A stretch of DNA of 64,000 nt from IMG/VR virus record IMGVR_UViG_3300044712_002679, positions 116,406 to 180,405 of that record; one strand, given 5' to 3'. The stretch's first letter is position 1; every line of letters starts with the position of its first letter. Both the position numbers and the translations under genes were made by a program. Under the pieces are notes generated by a model. The model worked only from the letters and a program-made list of their open reading frames with translations, was not told the DNA's origin and made no database searches. Positions 7,978 through 50,097 of this stretch are shown piece by piece. This DNA comes from a virus.

Positions 7978-8053
7978 TGGACTGTATCGGATTTGCACCG
8001 ATTGTTAGCATAATTACTTTTTTGGTTTGCTATGCTTCAAAAAGCAACAGCCC
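7978..8053 (-). tRNA. tRNA-like gene with 17-nt anticodon loop and 4-nt D loop (probable pseudogene or non-canonical tRNA)
   Basis: Acceptor GGGCTGT/ACAGTCC, T arm ATCGG-TGCAAAT-CCGAT, stem TAGCA/TGCTA enclosing AACCAAAAAAGTAATTA; same 3' trailer as the two tRNA-Phe genes. Confidence 0.35.
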
Positions 8054-8055
8054 AT

Positions 8056-8676
8056 TTATTTTTTATATTTATTTTTATTTTTTCCACCATGTGTATCTAA
8101 TGTTGCATTACAATTTGGACATAATATTCTTAAATTTGTTAATCTATGATCATTATTTATCCCATTTATATGATCTAATATTAAACTTATATGTTTTCCT
8201 TTCCAATTTTCATCTTGTCCACACATTTCACACTTTCTTTTTTTTAATCCATCTTCATATAATCTTTCTTTCAAATGTGTTGTATTAAAATTGGAATTTT
8301 CAACTAATATTAATGATAAATCTATTTTTTTATTTAAATTTTTTATTTGAAATTCATATTTAATAAAATGATCAATATTTATATCATATTTTTTAATATA
8401 TTTTTTTAATGTGTTATAAGAAGAACCAAAATTATTAATATCTAATTTAATTAAACATTCTTTATATGTTTTTGAATTTTTAACAATTTCAATTAAATAA
8501 TCTTTTTCATATTTATTTTTTACACTATAATGTGCTTCTATTTTTAATTTTTTTCGTCTTTCCTCAATTGATCTTATTGATCTATCTAATTTAGTTAAAC
8601 AATATTTTAAACCATAAATAGGATAATTTTCAATCAATATATCATCTTCATTTTTTGTCCATTTTTTATTTTTCAT
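8056..8676 (-). CDS. HNH homing endonuclease (free-standing)
   Basis: CEMCGQDENWKGKHISLILDHINGINNDHRLTNLRILCPNCNA = HNH core with flanking CxxC pairs; embedded in tRNA array. Confidence 0.85.
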   Translation of the reverse strand: MKNKKWTKNEDDILIENYPIYGLKYCLTKLDRSIRSIEERRKKLKIEAHYSVKNKYEKDYLIEIVKNSKTYKECLIKLDINNFGSSYNTLKKYIKKYDINIDHFIKYEFQIKNLNKKIDLSLILVENSNFNTTHLKERLYEDGLKKRKCEMCGQDENWKGKHISLILDHINGINNDHRLTNLRILCPNCNATLDTHGGKNKNKYKK

Positions 8677-8767
8677 TTTAAGTTATTTTTTGTAGTATAT
8701 ATAAATATTTTAAACTACAAAAAATCACTATGAACTATAAAAATTCAAAAAAATAGTTATGGGAATG

Positions 8768-8848
8768 CACGACAGAGAGGATTCGAACCCCTGAACCTTT
8801 CGGTATAGTTTTGGAGACTATCAGCTTTAACCACTTGCATACTGCCGT
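8768..8848 (-). tRNA. Class II (long variable arm) tRNA, anticodon CCA (Trp codon UGG), discriminator G
   Basis: Acceptor ACGGCAG/CTGTCGT, class II-type D loop AAGTGGTTAAA, anticodon arm ATAGT-CTCCAAA-ACTAT, variable arm ACC-GAAA-GGT, T arm AGGGG-TTCGAAT-CCTCT; 81 nt. Confidence 0.65.
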
Positions 8849-8857
8849 ATATTTTTG

Positions 8858-8941
8858 CGGAGGCGAAGGGAATCGAACCCCCAAATCATTACTGATTTAC
8901 TTGTTTTCAAGACAAGCCCCTCGTCCATTCGGACCACCTCC
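8858..8941 (-). tRNA. tRNA-Ser (UGA), class II
   Basis: Acceptor GGAGGTG/CGCCTCC, anticodon arm CTTGT-CTTGAAA-ACAAG, variable arm AAATCA..TGATTT, T loop TTCGATT, discriminator G. Confidence 0.85.
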
Positions 8942-8991
8942 AAATACAATTTAAAAGATTGTTCGTTATTTTTTGCTGTATGTATTCTTTG
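8942..8991 (-). repeat. Spacer with conserved trailer and free anticodon-arm-like hairpin (loop CUUUUAA)
   Basis: CAAAGAATACATACAGCAAAAAA trailer after tRNA-Phe; ACAAT-CTTTTAA-ATTGT at 8946..8962, loop identical to the two UUU-anticodon tRNAs. Confidence 0.65.
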
Positions 8992-9067
8992 TGGGGTGAG
9001 GTGGATTCGAACCACCATCCCTGGATTTTCAGTCCAGTGCGAAACTGACCAACTGCGCTACCACCCC
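8992..9067 (-). tRNA. tRNA-Phe (GAA), canonical T-loop
   Basis: Acceptor GGGGTGG/TCACCCC, anticodon arm CTGGA-CTGAAAA-TCCAG, T arm GGTGG-TTCGAAT-CCACC, discriminator A. Confidence 0.9.
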
Positions 9068-9084
9068 AATAAGTATAACGTATG

Positions 9085-9157
9085 TGCGTCTGGTGGGTCA
9101 CGATCCCACGACTCCATCATTAAAAGTGATGTACTCTACCAACTGAGTTACAGACGC
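9085..9157 (-). tRNA. tRNA-Lys (UUU), swapped T-loop ATCGTGA
   Basis: Acceptor GCGTCTG/CAGACGC, D arm ACTC-AGTTGGTA-GAGT, anticodon arm CATCA-CTTTTAA-TGATG, T arm GTGGG-ATCGTGA-CCCAC, discriminator A. Confidence 0.8.
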
Positions 9158-9196
9158 AAAAATATTCAATATGTCAATGAACTTTAAAAAAAATTG

Positions 9197-9282
9197 TGAT
9201 CCCGATGGGACTCGAACCCATGTACAACTTTCGTATCCCACATTAAAAGTGTGGTGCCTCGTTCCAACTCGGCCACGGAATC
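9197..9282 (-). tRNA. Class II (long variable arm) tRNA, anticodon UUU (Lys), discriminator A
   Basis: Base-by-base reverse complement: GATTCCG TG GCC GAGTTGGAACGA GGC A CCACA CTTTTAA TGTGG GATACGAAAGTTGTAC ATGGG TTCGAGT CCCAT CGGGATC A; Ser-like D arm; 86 nt. Confidence 0.7.
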
Positions 9283-9308
9283 AATAAATAAAGAACGTAA
9301 CAAAAAAA

Positions 9309-9334
9309 AATCCGAACTTTTTACGGTTCGGATT
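9309..9334. terminator. Strong bidirectional terminator
   Basis: AATCCGAAC / GTTCGGATT 9-bp stem, 9 A upstream and 5 T downstream. Confidence 0.8.
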
Positions 9335-9580
9335 TTTCTGTTTTATCTTAATTAAAAATCAATTTATTTTGACTTATTAAGTAAGCATACGAAATCCGAA
9401 CCTGATCTATGTGACCAAAAGCTCTTAAAGGATTTACTATGTTTACTTACGTTTCTCATGATTTCTATTTTTTACTTTGTTTTACTTATATAGAAAATTA
9501 ATTCTATTTTGTTTATTTTTTCTTTTATATATTAACGTAAAAAAGTCATTTTTTTCTATTTTTGATTTTTGTGACTTTTC
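9335..9580 (-). ncRNA. Candidate non-coding RNA unit 1 (promoter to terminator, about 250 nt)
   Basis: Bounded by minus-strand TATATTTG box (9587..9594) and terminator 9309..9334. No ORF of 60 aa or more. Nested long hairpin 9378..9449 (TAAGTAAGCAT/ATGTTTACTTA outer, AAATCC/GGATTT inner). Confidence 0.4.
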
Positions 9581-9586
9581 ACGATA

Positions 9587-9594
9587 CAAATATA
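9587..9594 (-). promoter_or_regulatory. -7 promoter box TATATTTG (minus strand)
   Basis: Part of a ~55-nt block duplicated at 9827..9880 (ACAAATATACRCATTATTTTTAATCWACCAAAT). Confidence 0.55.
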
Positions 9595-9649
9595 CGCATT
9601 ATTTTTAATCTACCAAATTTTTTTAATGTTTTTTTTTAAAATAATTAAC

Positions 9650-9820
9650 AGAAAGAGTTTTAACCTTTCCGCAAGACTTTCGCAATAACTTTCTCAAGGT
9701 TGTTGTTAGTTCTTGTTTGTATCCAGTCTCTTATCCCCTTTGAGTTGGGTGTTTAGGTATTATAAGTGAACTCTCTTATAATCTTGCTTGGGCGCACATC
9801 CTAAACTTTACTTTTCAAAT
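9650..9820 (-). ncRNA. Candidate non-coding RNA unit 2 (about 170 nt, locally GC-richer)
   Basis: Downstream of minus-strand TATATTTG box 9827..9834. No ORF of 60 aa or more on the minus strand (the only track ORF here, 9788..9991 +, is antisense and AT-rich). Visibly higher G+C than surroundings. Ends with GAAAG..CTTTC hairpin and T-rich tract. Confidence 0.4.
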
Positions 9821-9826
9821 TCTTTA

Positions 9827-9834
9827 CAAATATA
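9827..9834 (-). promoter_or_regulatory. -7 promoter box TATATTTG (minus strand)
   Basis: Second copy of the duplicated promoter block. Confidence 0.55.
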
Positions 9835-9949
9835 CACATTATTTTTTAATCACCAAATATTTTTCAATATTTTTTCAATTAAATTCATTGGTTTACAATT
9901 GGTAATTGGCAAAATTACTAAAATTGGCAATAATAAATCAAATGTTTTT

Positions 9950-10270
9950 TCATTTATTTTTCATTTCGAATTCGAATGTTGCATCATATGATTCACAATA
10001 TCCTGGTTTATCGTAAGATATTTTCCAACCATAATCTCGATATAAGTCTTCAAAATCCATCCAATGATTTTTGTATATATGTTCACTTGTCATATGTTCG
10101 GGTGCAACTTTCATAATTTCTGTCATAATATCTTTTTGTCTTATCGTAAAACTAGATTTGACATAATTATTTTTAATTGCATTATTTATTCCGAGTATTA
10201 CAAAATCTGGAATATTACTTTTTGCTTCATTCCTAGCTTCTTCTGGTGTTATTGGCTTAATTTCTGACAT
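9950..10270 (-). CDS. Hypothetical protein
   Basis: 106-aa ORF, first gene of a long minus-strand block. Confidence 0.6.
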   Translation of the reverse strand: MSEIKPITPEEARNEAKSNIPDFVILGINNAIKNNYVKSSFTIRQKDIMTEIMKVAPEHMTSEHIYKNHWMDFEDLYRDYGWKISYDKPGYCESYDATFEFEMKNK

Positions 10271-15441: not shown

Positions 15442-15882
15442 TTATATATTAATATTAAAATCTCGTTTTATTCTAATTTTTTCTTCTCGATCAAAAATAG
15501 AATTTTTTTTATCATACAGTTTTTTTCCTTTGGCAATACAAATTGTTACTTTACAAAGACCTTGTTTATTAACAAACATATTCAAAGGAATTATTGTTAA
15601 TCCTTTTTCTTTTATTTTGACTTTAAGTTTTTTTAATTCTTTTTTTGTTAATAATAATTTTTTTGGTCGTTTTGGATCATGATTAAATTGATTTGCAAAT
15701 TCATATTCATCAATATGACAATTTACTAAATATAAATCGTTTCCTGTAAACGAACAAAAACTTTCAGATAATGATGCTTTACCCTTTCTTATTGATTTTA
15801 TTTCTGAACCCACAAGCTGAATCCCCGCTACGATTTCATCTTCTATAAAAAATTCGTAGTATGCTTTTTTATTTTTTATCAT
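15442..15882 (-). CDS. smpB: SsrA-binding protein SmpB
   Basis: NKKAYYEFFIEDEIVAGIQLVGSEIKSIRKGKASL...DPKRPKKLLLTKKEL...KVTICIAKGKKLYDKK aligns along the full length with E. coli SmpB. Confidence 0.9.
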   Translation of the reverse strand: MIKNKKAYYEFFIEDEIVAGIQLVGSEIKSIRKGKASLSESFCSFTGNDLYLVNCHIDEYEFANQFNHDPKRPKKLLLTKKELKKLKVKIKEKGLTIIPLNMFVNKQGLCKVTICIAKGKKLYDKKNSIFDREEKIRIKRDFNINI

Positions 15883-39680: not shown

Positions 39681-40418
39681 ATGTCAAAAATAATCGAATT
39701 AATAAAGATCCATTTTGGTGATAATTCATTTACACCATATGGGCAATGGATTAAAATATTTAAACTTTTTGTTGAAAATTCATCTGAATCAACCAAACAT
39801 AAAATTGATCAAATAGATGAATTTATAAATAAATGGATTGAAAAAGAATATGGTGATTGGTCTATTCCAAATACAATTATAGAAGCCAAAGAAAAATTAG
39901 AAAATAAAATTAATGTTTTTTATGAAATATTAAAAGAATATTCTATAAATAATGAAAAAATTAAAAAAATTATAATAATTCCTGATACTAATGCGCTAAT
40001 ACAAAAACCTGATCCAAAGTCATATAAACAATTAATGAATAACGATAATCTAACGATTATTTTTTTACCTACTGTGTTAAGTGAACTAGATGAACTTAAA
40101 ATTAAAACTTCAAATTTAGATTTTCAAGAAAAAGTAAAATCAGTAATAAATAGATTAAAAGGATATAGAAAACAAGGCAACTTAATTGATGATGATGTAA
40201 CAGTCGAAAAAACAATAAAACTTAAAATGGTTGCATCAGAACCAAATTTTGATAAAACGTTATCTTGGCTTGATAGAAATAACAATGATGATCGGATAGT
40301 TGCAAGTGCATTAGAAATTCAACGGGATAATCCTTCTTCTGTTGTTTGTTTAATAACAAGTGACATAAATTTTCAAAATAAAATAATGATGGCAAAATTA
40401 CCATACAAAGATATATAG
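39681..40418 (+). CDS. PIN-domain protein (putative ribonuclease)
   Basis: C-terminal half: IIIPDTNALI, LPTVLSELDEL, NNNDDRIVASAL, LITSDINFQNK supply the four acidic PIN positions in order. Confidence 0.65.
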   Translation: MSKIIELIKIHFGDNSFTPYGQWIKIFKLFVENSSESTKHKIDQIDEFINKWIEKEYGDWSIPNTIIEAKEKLENKINVFYEILKEYSINNEKIKKIIIIPDTNALIQKPDPKSYKQLMNNDNLTIIFLPTVLSELDELKIKTSNLDFQEKVKSVINRLKGYRKQGNLIDDDVTVEKTIKLKMVASEPNFDKTLSWLDRNNNDDRIVASALEIQRDNPSSVVCLITSDINFQNKIMMAKLPYKDI

Positions 40419-40457
40419 AAAGAAGTTTAAAAAACTTCTTTTTTGTTAAAAATTTTG

Positions 40458-40465
40458 TATCTTTG
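40458..40465 (+). promoter_or_regulatory. -7 promoter box TATCTTTG
   Basis: 23 nt upstream of ATG 40489. Confidence 0.6.
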
Positions 40466-40488
40466 CAAATATTTTTTAACATTCAATT

Positions 40489-41808
40489 ATGACAAAAACA
40501 GAAGAATTTATCCAAAAAGCGAAACTTGTTCACGGGGATAAATATAATTATTCTAAAGTCGAATATATTAATAATCACACTAAAGTTACTATTATTTGTC
40601 CAAAGCATGGTGAATTTAAACAACAACCAGCAAATCATTTAAATAATATGGGTTGTCCAAAATGTGTTGGCAATATAAAATTAACAACAACAGATTTTTT
40701 ATCAAAAGCAAAAGAAATTCATGGGGATAAATATGATTATTCAAAAGTTGAATATGTCGGAATATTTAATCACGTGAAAATAATTTGTCCAATTCATGGG
40801 GAATTTGAACAAACACCAAGACAACATCTTAAAGGTCGTGGGTGTTATAAATGTGGTGGTACACAAAAATATACACAAAATGAATATGTTATAAAAGCAA
40901 AGGAACTTCACGGGGATAAATATGATTATTCAAAAGTTAATTATTTGGGTGGTAGAAAAGATATAATTATAATTTGTCCTAAACACGGTGAATTTAAACA
41001 AAAAGCTGGTCAACATATACATGGTTCAGGTTGTCCAAATTGTGCTGGATTAGGGTTTATATTTCTATCATTTGAAGAAGCAAAAATTTTTGTTAAAAAT
41101 CTTAATTTACAAACACAAAATGAATGGCAAAAATATTGTAAATCGGGAAATAAACCTGATAATATACCAATAGCACCCGAAATTGTTTATAAAAAAGTTT
41201 GGATTAACTGGGGTGATTGGTTGGGTACATTTAAAATTTCAAATCAAAAAAAAGAATATTGGACATTTGAAGAAGCTAGAATATTTGTTAGAAATCTTAA
41301 TTTAAAATCAATAACAGAATGGAAAAGATATTGTAAAAATGAAAATAAACCTAGCAATATTCCAAATGATCCATACGGAACGTATAATAAATATGGTTGG
41401 TTAAATTGGGGTGATTTTTTAGGCTCATTTACATTAGCACCAAAAGATAGACAATATTTATCATTTGAAGAAGCAAGAAATTTTGTTAGAACACTTAATT
41501 TAAATTCAAAAGAAAAATGGGTAAATTATTGTAAATCGGGAAGTAAGCCTAACAATATTCCAAATGATCCATATAGTTATTATAAAGATGATGGTTGGAT
41601 TGATATGGGGGATTGGTTGGGTACATTTACAATTGCCCCACGATATAAACAATTAAATTATCTTTCAGAAGAAGAATTCATACAATTTATTAAAGATACA
41701 TTTCCAAATTTATATGGTGCTGAACTTCATAAAGCATATGAAGCTTGGTGGGATGAAAATAAACCAGAATATTTACCAAAGGATGTTGCTAAATATTATA
41801 ATAAATAA
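40489..41808 (+). CDS. WGDWLG-repeat family protein 1 (3 Zn-ribbon modules + 3 repeats + conserved tail)
   Basis: HGDKY.YSKV.Y...V.IICP.HGEF.Q....H..G.GCP.C x3; F.EAR.FVR.LNLKS..EW..YCKSG.KP.NIP..P...Y...GW..WGDWLG x3; tail NYLSEEEFIQFIKDTFP...AWWDENKPEYLPKDVAKYYNK. Confidence 0.85.
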   Translation: MTKTEEFIQKAKLVHGDKYNYSKVEYINNHTKVTIICPKHGEFKQQPANHLNNMGCPKCVGNIKLTTTDFLSKAKEIHGDKYDYSKVEYVGIFNHVKIICPIHGEFEQTPRQHLKGRGCYKCGGTQKYTQNEYVIKAKELHGDKYDYSKVNYLGGRKDIIIICPKHGEFKQKAGQHIHGSGCPNCAGLGFIFLSFEEAKIFVKNLNLQTQNEWQKYCKSGNKPDNIPIAPEIVYKKVWINWGDWLGTFKISNQKKEYWTFEEARIFVRNLNLKSITEWKRYCKNENKPSNIPNDPYGTYNKYGWLNWGDFLGSFTLAPKDRQYLSFEEARNFVRTLNLNSKEKWVNYCKSGSKPNNIPNDPYSYYKDDGWIDMGDWLGTFTIAPRYKQLNYLSEEEFIQFIKDTFPNLYGAELHKAYEAWWDENKPEYLPKDVAKYYNK

Positions 41809-46673: not shown

Positions 46674-47426
46674 ATGAAAAAGGAATTCTTATTATTTGAA
46701 GAAGCTAGAAATTTTGTTAGAAATCTTAAATTAAAATCACAAAAAGAATGGAACAAATATATTAAATCAGGAAATAAACCTGATAATATTCCAAGTGATC
46801 CATATATTGCTTATAAAGATAATGGTTGGCTTAATTGGGGTGATTGGTTAGGTACATTTACTATAAAAAATAAAGATTTTTTACCATTTGAAGAATCAAG
46901 AAATTTTGTTAGAACACTTAAATTTAACAATAGAAAAAAATGGAAATTGTATTGTAAATCTGGTAAACCTGATAATATTCCAAGTAATCCAAACGTTGTA
47001 TATAAAGATAATGGTTGGTATAATTGGGGTGATTGGTTAGGAACATATACAATTGCAACATTTAATAAAGAATATTTATCATTTTATGATGCTAAAATAT
47101 ATGTTCATACATTAAATTTAAAAACCAAAATTGAATATGTTAAATATATTAAATCTGGTAATAAACCTGATAATATTCCAAGTGATCCATATAAGGTTTA
47201 TTACGATAAAGGTTGGATTAATTGGGGTGATTGGTTAGGTACATTTACTATTTCAAATCAAAATAAACAATTATATTATTTATCAGAAGAAGAATTTCAA
47301 CAATTTATTATTGCTAATTTTTCAGATATTCATCCAGATGATATGGATGAAGCTTATAGTAATTTTTGGAATAAAAATGAACCTATAAATTTACCAAAAT
47401 ATCCAAAAATATTTTATAATCAATAA
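46674..47426 (+). CDS. WGDWLG-repeat family protein 6 (3 repeats + tail)
   Basis: Module order read from the translation. Confidence 0.85.
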   Translation: MKKEFLLFEEARNFVRNLKLKSQKEWNKYIKSGNKPDNIPSDPYIAYKDNGWLNWGDWLGTFTIKNKDFLPFEESRNFVRTLKFNNRKKWKLYCKSGKPDNIPSNPNVVYKDNGWYNWGDWLGTYTIATFNKEYLSFYDAKIYVHTLNLKTKIEYVKYIKSGNKPDNIPSDPYKVYYDKGWINWGDWLGTFTISNQNKQLYYLSEEEFQQFIIANFSDIHPDDMDEAYSNFWNKNEPINLPKYPKIFYNQ

Positions 47427-47434
47427 AAAATGTT

Positions 47435-47442
47435 TATATTTG
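47435..47442 (+). promoter_or_regulatory. -7 promoter box TATATTTG
   Basis: 15 nt upstream of ATG 47458. Confidence 0.5.
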
Positions 47443-47457
47443 TATTAAATTTATAAA

Positions 47458-50097
47458 ATGAAAAAAGTACCAAATAATGAATGGTGGTATGTTATTAAAA
47501 ATGAACAACCACCACGATTACAAAAGTTAGAATTGTTAAATAAATTGGAACATGATTTAAAATATTGTGAACCATATGAACTTCAACTAATAATTGATTC
47601 TGGCTTGATTCCAAAAGAATTTAGTGAAGTTATTAAATATGAAGCAGGATCAAGTGGTCGATTAAAAATTTTTGAAAAATTAAAAGAAAAATTTGAAGAT
47701 CCATTCTATAAAGATAATAATGAATCAGAATCAGAATCAGAATCAGAATCAAAAACAGATGAAGAAATTAATCAAAAAGATGAAATTGATGCTACAATCA
47801 CAGAAGAAAATAATGAAACTGAACCATCTTTACCATCGTTAACAATTATTCAAGATTTATATAATATTGATAATTATAATTATAATGCAGATGATGAACG
47901 TTTAGAAGCATTAATTCAATTTAAATTAAGAAAGGCTTGGAATACCGCATTAAATGATAATAATTTTATATCTTTATTAAAAGATAAAGATGGTGGTGAA
48001 AGATATAATATTATCAAACAATTGTTTTTTGATGAATATGATGAAGTTATTAAATATATACCACCTAAAGGTTACAATTTTAAAATAGAAAATAAAATAG
48101 CACCGCCATTGTTAATGCAATCATTAACCGTATATAGATTATTGAAATATAAAATATATGGTAATTGGTCTGGAACTGGTGCAGGAAAAACATTATCTTA
48201 CATATTAGCAAGTAGATCAATTGATGCTAAAATTACATTAGTTGTTGTTTTGAATTCAATTATAAAGCAAACAGTACGAGTAATAAATTCAGTATATCCT
48301 GATAGTGTTATATATACACAATATGATAAAAAATTAAAAATTGACACATCAAAAAATAATTATATCATATTGAATTATGAAAAATTTCAACAAAATTATT
48401 CTGAAGAATTATATCAACATTTAAATATTAATCATAAAATTGATTTTATTGTAATTGATGAAATTCATAATATAAAACATAGAGAAGATGGCAGAAAGCC
48501 AAAAGATGATCCAAAAGAATCAATTAGACGACAAGTTTTGAGTAGGATTATTGGTAGATCAAAAGAAAAAAATCCAAACTTATATCTTTTAGCGTTGTCA
48601 GCAACACCCATAATAAATGATATATCAGAAGCAAAATCATTATTAGAATTAATGACAGGATATTCTTATGATGATATAGGTAATAGTCCTACTATTGATA
48701 ATGGAAGAGAAATGTTTAAAGCATTATCATTAAATGGGCTAAGATATATTCCAAAATATGATATAACGATAAATGAATTAAATGGACACAATACACCCGA
48801 ATTGAATATTAATGGTGATCATTTAGCTGATCAATTATCAAATATATCATCTAAAAAAACATTAGATATTGAAAAAATTTTAATTCCTGATAAATTAAAT
48901 GCGATTAAAAAATTTTTAAAGAAAGGTACTGTCATTTATTCATATTTTAAAACTGATATTATAAATCAAGTAATATCATATGTTGAAGATTTGGGATTTA
49001 AAATCGGAACATATACAGGTGATGATGATGTTGATGATAGAGATAAAACTTTTGAAAAGTTTAAAAATGGTGAAATTGATATTCTTATTGGAACAAAACC
49101 AATTGGTACAGGATTAGATGAATTGCAAAAATGTTGTAATCAGATGATATTACTTAATTTACCTTGGACTCATGCTGAATATATTCAACTTATTGGTCGT
49201 TTGATAAGAAAAGGTAATTTATTTGAAAAAGTTGATATTATCATTCCACAAATTAAAATAAATTTAGATAATGATGTTTGGTCTTGGGATATTCAAAGGT
49301 TCAATCGCATAAAGTTCAAAAAAACATTATCAGATTTAGTTATTGATGGTATAATACCATCAGATAAAATGCCATCAATTGAAACAATGCGCAGACAAGC
49401 TATTCAAGCATTACAGAATTGGAAAGATCGAATTGCATCAGGTAATATTATTGAAATTAACAGAAAGAAATTAGAAATTGATTTATATCCAGAAATTTTA
49501 GATTATAGTCAAAAACTTGAACATATTAATTCCGAACTTCAAGATATTATAAGAAAAGCTAAAACTAGTAAATCTAGCACAACACATAAAGAATTTATTA
49601 CTAAACCCGAAAATTGGTTTAGATATCATGCATTAAGAGATGAAAGTATGAAATCCTGGTCTGAAATTCCATATGAATACATAGCCAAGAAAATAAAAAA
49701 TAAACGCCATTATGTTGCTGATTTTGGTTGTGGTGAAAACAAATTAAAAGATTTGATTCCTAAGAATAAAGTTATTTCTTTTGATCATATTGCATTTGAT
49801 GATACAGTACACGCATGTGATATGAAAGATGTTAGTGAATATATTAAAGATGAAGAACTTGACATTGCAGTATTTAGTTTAGCACTTTGGGGGATAAATT
49901 ACAAAGATTATTTGGTTGAAGCATATAGAACATTGTGTTATGGTGGGTTTATTTATATTGCAGAACCATCTAAAAAATATGATGGTGAAGATGGACAAGA
50001 AGAATTAAAAAAATTGATAGTTGAAGCAGGATTTAAGTTGGTTGGTGATATTGAAACTAGAGGAAAATTCATTTACATTACAGGAACTAAAGTATAA
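47458..50097 (+). CDS. SF2 helicase fused to a C-terminal Rrp8-like (Methyltransf_8-type) SAM methyltransferase
   Basis: Helicase: GNWSGTGAGKT (I), VIDEIHNIK (II), LALSATP (III), QLIGRLIRKG (VI). MTase: YVADFGCGENKL...VISFDHIA...VHACDM...LDIAVFSLALWGINYKDYLVEAYRTLCYGGFIYIAEP parallels eukaryotic Rrp8. Acidic (ES)x5 tract near the N-terminus. Confidence 0.8.
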   Translation: MKKVPNNEWWYVIKNEQPPRLQKLELLNKLEHDLKYCEPYELQLIIDSGLIPKEFSEVIKYEAGSSGRLKIFEKLKEKFEDPFYKDNNESESESESESKTDEEINQKDEIDATITEENNETEPSLPSLTIIQDLYNIDNYNYNADDERLEALIQFKLRKAWNTALNDNNFISLLKDKDGGERYNIIKQLFFDEYDEVIKYIPPKGYNFKIENKIAPPLLMQSLTVYRLLKYKIYGNWSGTGAGKTLSYILASRSIDAKITLVVVLNSIIKQTVRVINSVYPDSVIYTQYDKKLKIDTSKNNYIILNYEKFQQNYSEELYQHLNINHKIDFIVIDEIHNIKHREDGRKPKDDPKESIRRQVLSRIIGRSKEKNPNLYLLALSATPIINDISEAKSLLELMTGYSYDDIGNSPTIDNGREMFKALSLNGLRYIPKYDITINELNGHNTPELNINGDHLADQLSNISSKKTLDIEKILIPDKLNAIKKFLKKGTVIYSYFKTDIINQVISYVEDLGFKIGTYTGDDDVDDRDKTFEKFKNGEIDILIGTKPIGTGLDELQKCCNQMILLNLPWTHAEYIQLIGRLIRKGNLFEKVDIIIPQIKINLDNDVWSWDIQRFNRIKFKKTLSDLVIDGIIPSDKMPSIETMRRQAIQALQNWKDRIASGNIIEINRKKLEIDLYPEILDYSQKLEHINSELQDIIRKAKTSKSSTTHKEFITKPENWFRYHALRDESMKSWSEIPYEYIAKKIKNKRHYVADFGCGENKLKDLIPKNKVISFDHIAFDDTVHACDMKDVSEYIKDEELDIAVFSLALWGINYKDYLVEAYRTLCYGGFIYIAEPSKKYDGEDGQEELKKLIVEAGFKLVGDIETRGKFIYITGTKV

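What the first reader, a model, noticed from the sequence alone, without database searches (positions are those of the whole stretch)
9335..9834. Two tandem promoter-driven units with no ORF: candidate structured ncRNAs next to the tRNA array
A ~55-nt block containing a minus-strand TATATTTG box is duplicated (9587 and 9827). Each copy faces a stretch with no ORF of 60 aa or more on that strand. Unit 2 (about 9650..9820) is visibly GC-richer than the surrounding DNA. Unit 1 (about 9335..9580) contains a nested long hairpin (9378..9449) and ends at a very strong terminator (9309..9334). The phage encodes SmpB, so I looked for tmRNA features and did not find them. These may therefore be other regulatory or decoy RNAs.
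Basis: partly seen in the sequence, partly recalled or inferred. Interest (0 to 1): 0.6.

Follow-up and report, generated by a model that had tools for sequence, protein, structure and literature searches.

The report
Leader-peptide attenuator controlling phage tRNA array
The stretch flagged as two non-coding RNA genes holds a short translated leader ORF plus a terminator switch just upstream of the phage's tRNA genes; its codons match those tRNAs one for one, so the phage probably makes more tRNA only when ribosomes run short of it.

Summary
The sequence features are real: a duplicated Bacteroidota-type promoter block, a GC-richer unit 2, a long hairpin and a strong terminator. No tmRNA is present.

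Unit 1 is not an ORF-free ncRNA. It holds a 31-codon ORF (9459..9364, minus strand). Codons 5-17 (SKHSKSFKSFWSH) plus three later codons are cognate to all nine anticodon species of the tRNA array that starts about 20 nt after the terminator (Lys, Ser, Phe, Trp, His). That 13-codon run is unique in all six frames of the 64-kb window.

A segment inside the ORF (GGTTCGGATTT) is complementary to the terminator's 5' arm. This is the classic 1:2 / 2:3 / 3:4 attenuator layout.

Related phages carry the same module with different leaders that track different arrays:
- LVLCLCVLVL before Cys/Val/Leu
- LLQQLQLLQL before Gln/Leu
- a Lys-rich leader before Lys/Lys
- TPAPAVAFRRGTGTGTGT before Arg/Thr/Val/Ala/Gly/Pro, in the 735-kb phage LR756501
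- QRLHLQELEQP before Pro/Glu/Gln/His/Leu/Arg, in cultured Cellulophaga phage phi17:2

Compensatory changes preserve both helices. I found no published description.

Unit 2 is conserved in one close relative only, where it has no promoter of its own. Its role is unresolved.

All of the evidence is computational.

The parts
9825..9875 (-). Promoter block copy 2 (P2): -33 TTTG at 9857..9854, -7 TATATTTG at 9834..9827
   Evidence: Direct repeat D1. Exact TTTG-N19-TAnnTTTG match. Lies inside an insertion that the relative L016 lacks. Resembles the region upstream of the helicase gene at 47458.
9807..9949 (-). Window-specific 143-nt insertion between the stop codon of the 106-aa gene and unit 2. It carries P2 and GCCAATT-type short repeats.
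   Evidence: Alignment with L016. 72% match over 107 nt to 47354..47452. Repeat D5.
9640..9806 (-). Unit 2: GC-richer conserved non-coding block, role unresolved
   Evidence: GC 0.38-0.39. Homolog only in L016/L031. About 93% identical there, with an indel that breaks any reading frame. No Rfam hit. Whole-unit fold z = -0.5.
9751..9806 (-). Unit 2 5' hairpin (GTTTAGG...CCTAAAC enclosing ATTATAAG/CTTATAAT)
   Evidence: -14.3 kcal/mol, z = -3.6, 0 of 200 shuffles as good. An A-to-G change in L016 keeps the pair as G-U on this strand.
9648..9672 (-). Unit 2 3' hairpin, a weak terminator-like site followed by a U-poor tail
   Evidence: Terminator scan. z = -2.5. Identical in L016.
9585..9635 (-). 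Promoter block copy 1 (P1): -33 TTTG at 9617..9614, -7 TATATTTG at 9594..9587. Drives the leader and the tRNA array.
   Evidence: The same promoter type sits upstream of the leaders in L014, L016, L018, L019, L021, L022, L033 and phi17:2.
9522..9582 (-). 5'-UTR module: start-proximal hairpin (GTGAAAAGTCA / TGACTTTTTTAC) followed by an ATATATAA box
   Evidence: z = -3.0. The module AAAAATRGAAAAAAnTGAYnTTTTTT...ATATATAA is conserved in leaders that serve three different amino-acid sets: W/L016, L018/19, L021 and L033. Function unknown.
9364..9459 (-). Leader ORF, 31 codons: MRNVSKHSKSFKSFWSHRSGSDFVCLLNKSK (ATG 9459..9457, TAA 9366..9364)
   Evidence: ORF list. Homologous ORFs in L016, L018 and L019. 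19 of 30 codons are array-cognate against 0.26-0.28 background, P about 1e-5 to 5e-5.
9409..9447 (-). Regulatory codon run: AGT AAA CAT AGT AAA TCC TTT AAG AGC TTT TGG TCA CAT. Further cognate codons follow: TCA at 9405, TCG at 9399, TTC at 9393.
   Evidence: Longest run of array-cognate codons in all six frames of the window: 13, next best 8. The only 17-codon windows that cover all 9 anticodon species lie here. It uses rare codons: TCC 2.0, TCG 3.3, AGC 1.1, AAG 9.4 per 1000.
9378..9449 (-). Segment 1:2 hairpin (anti-antiterminator). It overlaps the regulatory run and sequesters segment 2.
   Evidence: -23.2 kcal/mol, z = -4.9.
9392..9402 (-). Segment 2, GGTTCGGATTT, the 5' strand of the antiterminator. 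It lies inside the ORF at codons 20-23.
   Evidence: Perfect 11-bp complement of 9335..9325. Co-transcriptional folding.
9325..9335 (-). Segment 3, AAATCCGAACC. It is shared between the antiterminator (with segment 2) and the terminator (with segment 4).
   Evidence: Compensatory changes in L018/L019 affect segments 2, 3 and 4 together.
9302..9339 (-). Intrinsic terminator: 14-bp stem AGAAAAATCCGAAC / GTTCGGATTTTTTT, 8-nt loop, then a U-tract. It ends about 20 nt before the first tRNA.
   Evidence: z = -5.0.
5091..9282 (-). Regulated tRNA array, in order: Lys(UUU) x2, Phe, Ser(UGA), Trp, Ser(CGA), Phe, Ser(GCU), Ser(GGA), His x3, one insert-containing tRNA, Trp, Lys(CUU). HNH and GIY-YIG endonuclease genes are interspersed.
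   Evidence: ARAGORN and Rfam. Endonuclease genes.

Best explanation
**What unit 1 is.** Unit 1 (9617..9302, minus strand) is a ribosome-mediated (leader-peptide) transcription attenuator. It gates transcription of the phage tRNA array at 9282..5091.

**Proposed mechanism (inferred).**
1. A host-type Bacteroidota promoter (P1) starts a transcript.
2. After a roughly 120-nt A-rich 5' UTR, the transcript encodes a 31-codon leader peptide.
3. Codons 5-17, plus three later codons, are one or more codons for every tRNA species in the array: Lys AAA/AAG, Ser AGT/AGC/TCC/TCA/TCG, His CAT, Phe TTT/TTC, Trp TGG.
4. If any of these aminoacyl-tRNAs is scarce, the ribosome stalls in the run. This melts the 1:2 hairpin but leaves segment 2 (GGUUCGGAUUU) free.
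5. Free segment 2 pairs with the terminator's 5' arm (AAAUCCGAACC). The terminator cannot form, and RNA polymerase reads into the tRNA genes.
6. If the tRNAs are plentiful, the ribosome runs on over segment 2. If there is no translation, segment 2 stays locked in the 1:2 hairpin. In either case the terminator forms about 20 nt before the first tRNA.
7. The result is negative feedback: the phage's tRNA supply is matched to translational demand, and possibly to host tRNA depletion.

**What is shown.** The ORF, the codon-anticodon match, the alternative pairings and their covariation, and recurrence of the same design with different amino-acid sets in related phages.

**What is inferred.** Translation of the ORF, stalling, termination and read-through.

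**Unit 2.** Unit 2 (9806..9640) is most likely the structured 3'-UTR and weak terminator of the upstream 106-aa gene. In this phage it has been placed behind a duplicated promoter cassette (P2), so P2 plus P1 may act as tandem promoters for the tRNA operon. This part is weakly supported.
For: 1. **ORF and statistics.** The 31-aa ORF was found. Its 13-codon cognate run is the longest in 128,000 six-frame codon positions; the next best is 8, against a background frequency of 0.278. All 9 anticodon species are covered, and the only 17-codon windows in the window that do so are the six inside the leader. Cognate codons are enriched over the phage's own long ORFs, P about 1e-5.

2. **Geometry.** The terminator ends about 20 nt before the first tRNA, so there is no room for another promoter. 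An 11-bp segment 2:3 complement exists. When the transcript is truncated before the terminator's 3' arm, segment 3 pairs with segment 2 while the A site is at or before the run. It is freed once the ribosome passes the run. This holds in 7 of 8 leaders.

3. **Covariation.** W has GGTTCGGA/TCCGAACC, L018 has AGTTTGGA/TCCAAACT and L019 has GAGTTTGGA/TCCAAACTC. Matching changes occur in the terminator's 3' arm. In L016 a 1-nt indel shifts the peptide's C-terminal frame but keeps the RNA segment.

4. **Independent recurrence with different amino-acid sets:**
- L014: LVLCLCVLVL before Cys, Val x3, Leu x5
- L027: LLQQLQLLQL before Gln/Leu
- L022: a Lys-rich leader before Lys/Lys, and ELLAVEQVNLLLWADED before Asp/Glu/Leu/Val/Ala/Gly
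- L021: an Asn/Tyr/Asp leader
- LR756501.1: TPAPAVAFRRGTGTGTGT before Arg/Thr/Val/Ala/Gly/Pro
- Cellulophaga phage phi17:2: QRLHLQELEQP before Pro/Glu/Gln/His/Leu/Leu/Arg, and TKTGITVIDKTKGARAY.GDTVIG before Ala/Lys/Ile/Gly/Met/Asp/Thr/Val/Arg/Met/Tyr

5. **Specificity of the pairing.** The true leader-array pairing is the best of 720 permutations. The leader core is the top-scoring window of its whole locus in 6 of 7 independent cases.

6. **Synteny.** The arrays in the window and in L014 lie at a comparable position, each a short way upstream of a homologous ATP-grasp gene. They carry different tRNAs and correspondingly different leaders.

7. **Conservation.** The non-coding stretch 9805..9295 is about 91% identical to L031, while neighbouring genes are 70-88% identical.
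Against: - There are no expression, ribosome-profiling or termination data. Everything is inferred from sequence.
- For full-length transcripts the minimum-free-energy fold keeps the terminator even with a stalled-ribosome mask in every relative tested. The apparent thermodynamic switch in the window depended on the U-tract pairing with the A-rich 5' region. The switch therefore has to be kinetic, as in classical attenuators.
- With no ribosome, the truncated transcripts of W, L016, L018, L014 and L021 fold into the antiterminator at equilibrium. Termination without translation then relies on the 1:2 hairpin forming first.
- One leader (L021) is not significant against coding background, and L022a folds ambiguously.
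- Some leader codons in L016/L018 (TCC in L016; AGT and TCC in L018) have no detected tRNA. Either those tRNAs were missed or they have been lost.
- Anticodon assignments rest on ARAGORN, and several tRNAs are atypical.
- Tight transcription-translation coupling has not been demonstrated in Bacteroidota, to my knowledge.
- For unit 2 the explanation rests on a single relative.
Confidence: 0.8

Rival explanations
1. One reading: both units are promoter-driven, ORF-free structured ncRNAs (regulatory or decoy RNAs) that act in trans.
For: Promoters are present. There are stable hairpins: z = -3.6 for the unit 2 5' hairpin and z = -4.9 for the unit 1 hairpin. The non-coding stretch is conserved at least as well as neighbouring genes. 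A terminated leader transcript could also act as an sRNA; this is known for the Sinorhizobium rnTrpL attenuator (PMC6614838, listed).
Against: Unit 1 contains a conserved ORF whose codon content tracks the downstream tRNAs across many phages. An ncRNA model cannot explain that. There is no Rfam family. Unit 2 has no promoter in its only relative, and its overall fold is not better than shuffles.
Confidence: 0.05
2. Unit 2 specifically is an independent small RNA or cis-element with its own function. Examples would be a processing or stability element, or a protein-binding site that controls entry into the tRNA operon.
For: GC-richer than its surroundings. Its 5' and 3' parts are nearly identical in L016 while its middle varies. 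The 5' hairpin has z = -3.6, and an A-U to G-U change is compatible only with this strand. In the window it has acquired its own promoter.
Against: Only two sequences exist in the collections searched. There is no covariation and no Rfam hit. It is absent from L018/L019, which keep the attenuator.
Confidence: 0.3
3. The small ORF encodes a functional micro-peptide with its own terminator, and the match to the tRNAs is coincidental or reflects general codon usage.
For: Some leaders look like signal or hydrophobic peptides, for example MKKFNNILVLCLCVLVLASATGQSMF in L014. RefSeq annotates the phi17:2 leader B region as a hypothetical protein, gp077.
Against: The peptides are unrelated in sequence, yet each matches its own array. 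The true pairing is the best of 720 permutations, and the leader core is the top window of its locus in 6 of 7 cases. The frameshift in L016 preserves the RNA but not the peptide. Rare codons are chosen so that each isoacceptor is represented.
Confidence: 0.03
4. Translation of the leader does sense the same tRNAs, but the output is not transcription termination. Stalling could instead control RNA processing or stability, or RNase P/RNase E access to the first tRNA.
For: Full-length folds always retain the terminator. Coupling of transcription and translation in Bacteroidota is untested. The first tRNA starts 0-60 nt after the hairpin.
Against: Every case has a canonical intrinsic terminator with a U-tract, plus a segment complementary to its 5' arm. 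That segment sits just beyond the codon run, which is the geometry specific to termination control.
Confidence: 0.1
5. The region encodes a divergent (possibly two-piece) tmRNA that partners the phage SmpB.
For: SmpB is encoded about 6 kb away. Unrelated high-GC phages that carry a homolog of the neighbouring 106-aa gene have a permuted tmRNA nearby.
Against: ARAGORN finds no tmRNA. No Rfam tmRNA model, including the permuted ones, hits at the gathering score across the window, nor at E <= 10 in 9150-10050. There is no tRNA-like T-arm or acceptor in 9300-9900.
Confidence: 0.01

Closest known systems
Leader-peptide (ribosome-mediated) transcription attenuators of amino-acid biosynthetic operons (trpL, hisL, leuL, thrL, ilvL, pheL; Rfam Trp_leader, Thr_leader, Phe_leader and others)
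   Same: A short leader ORF with a run of regulatory codons. An intrinsic terminator sits directly before the regulated genes. Three mutually exclusive pairings exist (1:2, 2:3, 3:4), with segment 2 just downstream of the run. The regulated product is related to the amino acids encoded in the run.
   Different: The regulated genes are tRNAs, not biosynthetic enzymes. The run mixes up to nine codon species for five or six amino acids, one or more per isoacceptor in the array, rather than repeats of one or two amino acids. The element is phage-encoded and uses Bacteroidota promoters. There is no sequence membership: Rfam leader models score 17-25 bits against gathering scores of 41-55, essentially on the terminator alone.
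pheST (pheM leader) attenuation in E. coli, where a translation-apparatus gene is controlled by cognate codons (from my own knowledge of the literature, not checked here)
   Same: A component of the translation machinery for a given amino acid is controlled by ribosome speed on that amino acid's codons.
   Different: The target there is an aminoacyl-tRNA synthetase, for a single amino acid, in a cellular operon.
T-box riboswitches
   Same: They sense tRNA status to control read-through of a terminator upstream of translation-related genes.
   Different: A T-box binds uncharged tRNA directly through a specifier codon and a T-box sequence, with no leader translation. No T-box model matches here.
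Small stable RNAs encoded next to phage tRNA genes (T4 species 1 and 2, rnaC/rnaD; from memory, not tested)
   Same: Non-tRNA transcribed sequence adjacent to a phage tRNA cluster that is interspersed with homing endonuclease genes.
   Different: Unit 1 is translated and acts in cis. No sequence comparison with the T4 RNAs was possible.
tmRNA
   Same: It lies near tRNA genes in a phage that encodes SmpB.
   Different: There is no tRNA-like domain or tag reading frame. All detectors were negative.

Membership tests
Leader-peptide transcription attenuator (mechanistic class) | Short ORF in the leader transcript with a cluster of regulatory codons | tested here: met
   31-codon ORF at 9459..9364 with a 13-codon run. 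Equivalent ORFs occur in 10 other leader/array pairs.
Leader-peptide transcription attenuator (mechanistic class) | Intrinsic terminator between the leader ORF and the regulated genes, with no intervening promoter | tested here: met
   14-bp stem plus U-tract at 9339..9302. The first tRNA starts at 9282.
Leader-peptide transcription attenuator (mechanistic class) | Antiterminator: a segment at or after the end of the codon run is complementary to the terminator's 5' arm | tested here: met
   11-bp GGTTCGGATTT/AAATCCGAACC pairing. It is preserved with compensatory changes in L018/L019. It forms in truncated-transcript folds in 7 of 8 leaders.
Leader-peptide transcription attenuator (mechanistic class) | Anti-antiterminator (1:2) hairpin that overlaps the regulatory codons and sequesters segment 2 | tested here: met
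   Hairpin 9449..9378, -23.2 kcal/mol, z = -4.9. In equilibrium folds of truncated RNA it does not always beat 2:3.
Leader-peptide transcription attenuator (mechanistic class) | Regulatory codons correspond to the function of the regulated genes | tested here: met
   All 9 anticodon species are covered. The leader-array pairing is the best of 720 permutations. The leader core ranks first in 6 of 7 loci.
Leader-peptide transcription attenuator (mechanistic class) | Read-through increases when the cognate aminoacyl-tRNA is limiting, and the leader is translated | not testable with these tools
   Needs Term-seq, Ribo-seq or reporter assays.
Rfam amino-acid operon leader families (Thr_leader RF00506, Trp_leader RF00513, Phe_leader RF01859) | Score at or above the family's gathering threshold | tested here: not met
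   25.2, 16.8 and 16.8 bits against thresholds of 55, 41 and 55.
tmRNA | tRNA-like acceptor/T-arm domain plus a tag-peptide reading frame, detected by ARAGORN or by the Rfam tmRNA models including the permuted forms | tested here: not met
   No hit. The same tools do detect a permuted tmRNA in L005.
T-box riboswitch | Specifier loop and conserved T-box sequence (Rfam RF00230) | tested here: not met
   No match, even at E <= 10.
Bacteroidota sigma-A type promoter | -33 TTTG and -7 TAnnTTTG, about 19-21 nt apart (consensus from the literature, recalled from memory) | tested here: met
   Exact matches at 9617..9587 and 9857..9827. The same motif precedes the leaders in relatives. Promoter activity itself was not tested.
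Independent structured ncRNA gene (unit 2) | Own promoter and terminator conserved in relatives, with structure supported by covariation | tested here: inconclusive
   The promoter is present only in the window. There are two sequences and no double-sided changes. Only the 5' hairpin is significantly stable.

The most novel reading that the evidence does not exclude
Phages of Bacteroidota, from 145-kb T5-like Cellulophaga phages to the 735-kb 'huge phage' LR756501, organise their tRNA genes into amino-acid-specific regulons. Each regulon sits behind a bespoke multi-codon leader-peptide attenuator. The phage thereby reads ribosome speed on exactly the codons its tRNAs serve, and switches each tRNA block on only when that decoding capacity is short. 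Shortage could arise from host codon-usage mismatch, from phage-induced host shut-off, or from host anticodon-nuclease defences. This would be the first case of ribosome-mediated attenuation controlling tRNA genes. It would also be a natural multi-input sensor of tRNA availability.
Probability: 0.7. Interest if true: 0.9.

Novelty: new variant of a known kind. Interest (0 to 1): 0.82.

Why it matters
Phage tRNA arrays are usually treated as constitutively expressed codon-usage supplements or as counter-defence cargo. How their expression is controlled is essentially unknown.

Evidence here from eleven leader/array pairs in at least eight phages shows that each array is preceded by a leader ORF written in the array's own codons, coupled to a terminator switch. 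This has several consequences:
- It gives a concrete, testable feedback mechanism for the control of tRNA supply.
- It explains why these arrays are grouped by amino acid.
- It extends the classical attenuation paradigm from biosynthetic operons to tRNA genes, and to viruses.
- It provides an internal check on the decoding identity of atypical phage tRNAs.
- It corrects annotations. For example, phi17:2 gp077 is a leader, and gp078 overlaps a likely tRNA.
- It offers compact, natural, multi-codon sensors of translation capacity for synthetic biology.
- Because a cultured phage-host pair (Cellulophaga baltica / phi17:2) carries two such leaders, the idea can be tested directly.

Tried and rejected
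- **tmRNA:** ARAGORN and all Rfam models were negative.
- **Known RNA families:** only sub-threshold hits, driven by the terminator: MicC, Thr/Trp/Phe leaders and others.
- **DNA similarity of 9280-9960 to GenBank phages:** only two short chance-level hits.
- **Exact-pattern scans for unit 2:** none in IMG/VR with a 19-mer. In JGI metagenomes a 20-mer found only L031 (the same phage as L016) plus two chance hits in high-GC contigs. Covariation for unit 2 is therefore impossible.
- **Identical-protein look-up:** it gave only identical or near-identical copies, L012 and L013.
- **Anchors that found no relatives:** the 460-aa gene and SmpB.
- **Loci from the 106-aa gene anchor:** mostly without nearby tRNAs. 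L004-L006 are unrelated high-GC phages.
- **Unit 2 as a decayed copy of the 78-aa gene in L002, or as a coding region:** rejected. The frame is not kept between the window and L016, and the substitutions are non-synonymous.
- **Unit 2 as a degenerate copy of unit 1:** rejected. Only the promoter block is shared.
- **Unit 2's 7-codon mini-ORF (MCAQARL) as a second leader:** its codons do not match the array, so this was not pursued.
- **Full-length thermodynamic 'switch' test:** I withdrew the apparent positive result after one search showed it depended on artefactual U-tract/5'-A-rich pairing. It was replaced by truncated-transcript folding.
- **phi17:2 gp078 as a third leader:** rejected. It overlaps what looks like a missed tRNA-Ser(UGA).
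- **Literature:** nine full-text searches found no description of leader-peptide control of tRNA genes in phages. The one candidate paper (PMC3082878) mentions tRNA operons only in another context.
Full report
**1. The observation**

- A 51-nt block is duplicated at 9585-9635 and 9825-9875, 80% identical.
- On the minus strand each copy is a complete Bacteroidota-type promoter, TTTG-N19-TATATTTG, at 9617..9587 and 9857..9827.
- That strict motif occurs 4 times in 64 kb against 1.4 expected, which is not significant on its own. The extended -7 motif TGNNTATATTTG occurs 6 times against 1.3 expected, with 0 of 100 shuffles reaching 6.
- A third similar cassette lies upstream of the helicase gene at 47458.
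- Unit 2 is GC-richer: 0.38-0.39 against 0.17-0.27.
- The long hairpin 9449..9378 (-23.2 kcal/mol, z = -4.9) and the terminator at 9339..9302 (-15.8 kcal/mol, z = -5.0) are real.
- SmpB is encoded at 15442..15882.
- There is no tmRNA by ARAGORN or Rfam anywhere in the window, and none at E <= 10 in 9150-10050.

Fourteen tRNAs by ARAGORN, plus one insert-containing tRNA by Rfam, lie at 9282..5091 on the same strand. HNH and GIY-YIG endonuclease genes are interspersed among them. The phage is 25% GC. It encodes a T5 A1-like protein, and its nearest cultured relatives infect Flavobacteriia.

**2. Unit 1 is not ORF-free**

The minus strand has a 31-codon ATG ORF at 9459..9364: MRNVSKHSKSFKSFWSHRSGSDFVCLLNKSK.

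The tRNA array is unusual because it serves only five amino acids: Lys (UUU x2, CUU), Ser (UGA, CGA, GCU, GGA), Phe (GAA x2), Trp (CCA x2) and His (GUG x3).

Codons 5-17 of the ORF are AGT AAA CAT AGT AAA TCC TTT AAG AGC TTT TGG TCA CAT. TCA, TCG and TTC follow a few codons later. Every one of the nine anticodon species has at least one cognate codon.

The statistics are strong.
- The 13-codon run of array-cognate codons is the longest in all six frames of the window. The next best is 8, against a background frequency of 0.278.
- Among 47,509 stop-free 17-codon windows, the only six that cover all nine anticodon species are the six inside this ORF.
- The leader uses codons that are rare in the phage's own genes (TCC 2.0, TCG 3.3, AGC 1.1, AAG 9.4 per thousand). 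This is what you would expect if each isoacceptor had to be represented.

**3. Attenuator anatomy**

Segment 2, GGTTCGGATTT (9402..9392, codons 20-23), lies in the 3' half of the long hairpin. It is a perfect 11-nt complement of AAATCCGAACC (9335..9325), which is the 5' arm of the terminator. The terminator's 3' arm is GTTCGGATTTTTTT. The U-tract ends about 20 nt before the first tRNA, so the array can only be transcribed through this terminator.

I folded the transcript truncated just before the terminator's 3' arm, with a 30-nt ribosome footprint masked.
- The terminator's 5' arm is paired to segment 2 while the A site is on codons 2-15.
- It becomes free when the A site passes codon 16, because segment 2 is then covered.
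- The same transition, right at the end of the cognate run, is seen in 7 of 8 leaders analysed.

Two caveats apply.
- With the full-length RNA, the terminator is always the minimum-free-energy structure in the relatives. The apparent switch I first saw in the window depended on the U-tract pairing with the A-rich 5' region, and I discount it. The decision must therefore be kinetic, as in the trp and his attenuators.
- Without a ribosome, several truncated transcripts prefer 2:3 at equilibrium. Termination in the absence of translation therefore relies on the earlier-made 1:2 hairpin.

**4. Relatives**

The ATP-grasp (R2K) gene a short way beyond the far end of the array served as an anchor. 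With it and other routes I obtained related loci.

*Homologous leaders*
- L016 (= L031): MTIVSKHSKSFKSFWSHRS..., with the same terminator. A 1-nt indel changes the peptide's C-terminus but not the RNA segment.
- L018/L019: M..ISKHSSSSKSFKFWF.... Their helices are AGTTTGGA/TCCAAACT and GAGTTTGGA/TCCAAACTC, and the terminator is AAATCCAAACT/AGTTTGGATTT. The C:G to U:A and G:C to A:U changes are thus present in segments 2, 3 and 4 together.

*Non-homologous leaders in front of arrays with other contents*
- L014: MKKFNNI-LVLCLCVLVL-... before Cys(GCA), Val x3, Leu x5. This array, like the window's, lies a short way upstream of a homologous ATP-grasp gene.
- L027: LLQQLQLLQL before Gln/Gln/Leu/Leu/Gln/Leu/Leu.
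- L022: a leader with 8 Lys in 25 codons before Lys(UUU)/Lys(CUU), and ELLAVEQVNLLLWADED before Asp/Asp/Glu/Leu/Val/Leu/Leu/Leu/Ala/Gly.
- L021: an Asn/Tyr/Asp-rich leader before Asn/Tyr/Asp....
- The 735-kb GenBank phage LR756501.1: TPAPAVAFRRGTGTGTGTCVPAG before Arg x3/Thr x3/Val x2/Ala x2/Gly x3/Arg/Pro.
- The cultured Cellulophaga phage phi17:2 (NC_021798.1) has two. MKI-QRLHLQELEQP-... precedes Pro/Glu/Gln/His/Leu/Leu/Arg, with all 7 anticodons covered. ...TKTGITVIDKTKGARAYLGDTVIG precedes Ala/Lys/Ile/Gly/Met/Asp/Thr/Val/Arg/Met/Tyr. Each follows an identical promoter block and is followed by a terminator.

*Specificity tests*
- In a matrix of leader-versus-array enrichment, the true pairing is the best of all 720 permutations of six independent pairs.
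- The leader core is the single top-scoring window for array-cognate codon density in its whole locus in 6 of 7 independent cases.
- L021 is weak against coding background, and L022a folds ambiguously.

**5. Mechanism**

The best explanation is ribosome-mediated transcription attenuation of the tRNA operon.
- Shortage of any of the cognate aminoacyl-tRNAs stalls the ribosome in the run. This frees segment 2, the antiterminator forms, and the tRNAs are transcribed.
- When supply is ample, or when there is no translation, the terminator forms.

This amounts to negative feedback on tRNA supply. The ORF, the codon match, the pairings, their covariation and the recurrence are shown. Translation, stalling and termination are inferred.

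A conserved 5'-UTR module remains unexplained. It consists of a hairpin, GGAAAAAA-nTGAC-TTTTTTCC, followed by ATATATAA. It is shared by leaders that serve three different amino-acid sets.

**6. Unit 2**

- Unit 2 (9806..9640) has a homolog only in L016/L031.
- There it starts 9 nt after the stop codon of the 106-aa gene. The 143 nt that carry promoter P2 in the window are absent.
- The frame is not conserved and the substitutions are non-synonymous, so it is unlikely to code for protein.
- Its 5' hairpin is stable (z = -3.6), its 3' hairpin resembles a weak terminator (z = -2.5), and the rest is unremarkable.
- With two sequences about 93% identical, no covariation test is possible.
- My working reading is that it is the structured 3'-UTR and weak terminator of the upstream gene. 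In this phage a duplicated promoter cassette then turned it into part of a tandem-promoter leader for the tRNA operon. An independent sRNA or cis-element is not excluded.

**7. Comparison with what is known**

Functionally, unit 1 meets every sequence-level criterion of the leader-peptide attenuator class. It is not a member of any Rfam leader family; the scores are far below threshold. It differs from known attenuators in three ways: the target is tRNA genes, the run has a multi-amino-acid, one-codon-per-isoacceptor design, and the element is viral. It is neither a T-box nor a tmRNA.

Nine full-text searches found no description of such control of tRNA genes. The library does not hold most subscription-journal papers, so an older report cannot be ruled out.

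**8. Verdict**

- The ncRNA interpretation is replaced, for unit 1, by a leader-peptide attenuator. That is a new variant of a known mechanism, apparently widespread in phages of Bacteroidota, and testable in a cultured system.
- Unit 2 remains unexplained.

Noticed in passing
window 5091-9282 (minus strand): Several array tRNAs are structurally atypical for their anticodon. Lys(UUU) at 9196-9282 (87 nt), Lys(CUU) at 5091-5178 (88 nt) and Trp(CCA) at 8767-8848 (82 nt) have long, type-II-like variable arms. The array serves only five amino acids. Who charges these tRNAs, and with what, is open.
   Followed up: partly
window 5309-5443 (minus strand): Rfam calls a 135-nt tRNA that ARAGORN finds only in intron mode, with a 55-nt insert in the anticodon arm and a nominal Leu(AAG) identity. 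It may be an interrupted or intron-bearing tRNA. The leader has one CTT codon.
   Followed up: no
window 7142-7309 (minus strand): ARAGORN's tRNA-His(GTG) at 7142-7220 overlaps tRNA-Ser(GGA) at 7220-7309 by one base and has a mismatched acceptor stem. It may be a pseudo-tRNA.
   Followed up: no
window 9522-9582; L016, L018, L019, L021, L033: A conserved 5'-UTR module lies between the promoter and the leader ATG: a hairpin GGAAAAAA-nTGAC-TTTTTTCC followed by ATATATAA. It is shared by leaders that serve different amino-acid sets. In some phages it reads as a mini-ORF (MEKxD(F/Y)F...), but the ATG is ATA in the window. Function unknown.
   Followed up: partly
window 47290-47460 and 9807-9949: The 143-nt insertion carrying promoter P2 is 72% identical over 107 nt to the region just upstream of the 879-aa helicase gene. 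This suggests a reusable promoter cassette, with TTATTGC.AATTT and GCCAATT-like repeats that could be operator sites.
   Followed up: partly
window 15442-15882: The phage encodes SmpB, but no tmRNA is detectable anywhere in the 64-kb window. The partner tmRNA may be the host's, or it may lie elsewhere in the genome.
   Followed up: partly
L036 (NC_021798.1) 90383-90484 and 88442-88561: In Cellulophaga phage phi17:2, the annotated CDS gp078 overlaps what looks like an undetected type-II tRNA-Ser(UGA), with the anticodon stem-loop CTGGT-CTTGAAA-ACCAG. The annotated CDS gp077 starts at a TTG inside the promoter and is really the leader ORF of the second tRNA block.
   Followed up: partly
L021 11799-11871, L022 19685-19759, L034 17172, L017 3610-3684: Relatives carry suppressor-type tRNAs (anticodon CTA, and one TTA). 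This hints at stop-codon recoding in part of this phage group. The window itself shows no suppressor tRNA, and its genes read well in the standard code.
   Followed up: no
L004-L006 8309-8676: High-GC phages that share a homolog of the 106-aa gene carry a permuted (two-piece) tmRNA, followed by CTA-anticodon tRNAs, about 2 kb downstream of that gene.
   Followed up: no
L034 (LR756500.1), about 40270-40607: An Asn-rich small ORF (9 Asn in 48 codons) plus a terminator precedes tRNA-Asn(GTT) at the end of the fetched stretch. It is a possible further leader, but the rest of that array was not fetched.
   Followed up: no
window 2315-3121 and relatives: An ATP-grasp (R2K family) gene lies close to the tRNA arrays in this phage group, including the huge phages. 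One GenBank homolog is annotated 'ribosomal protein S6 glutaminyl transferase'. A link to translation is possible.
   Followed up: no
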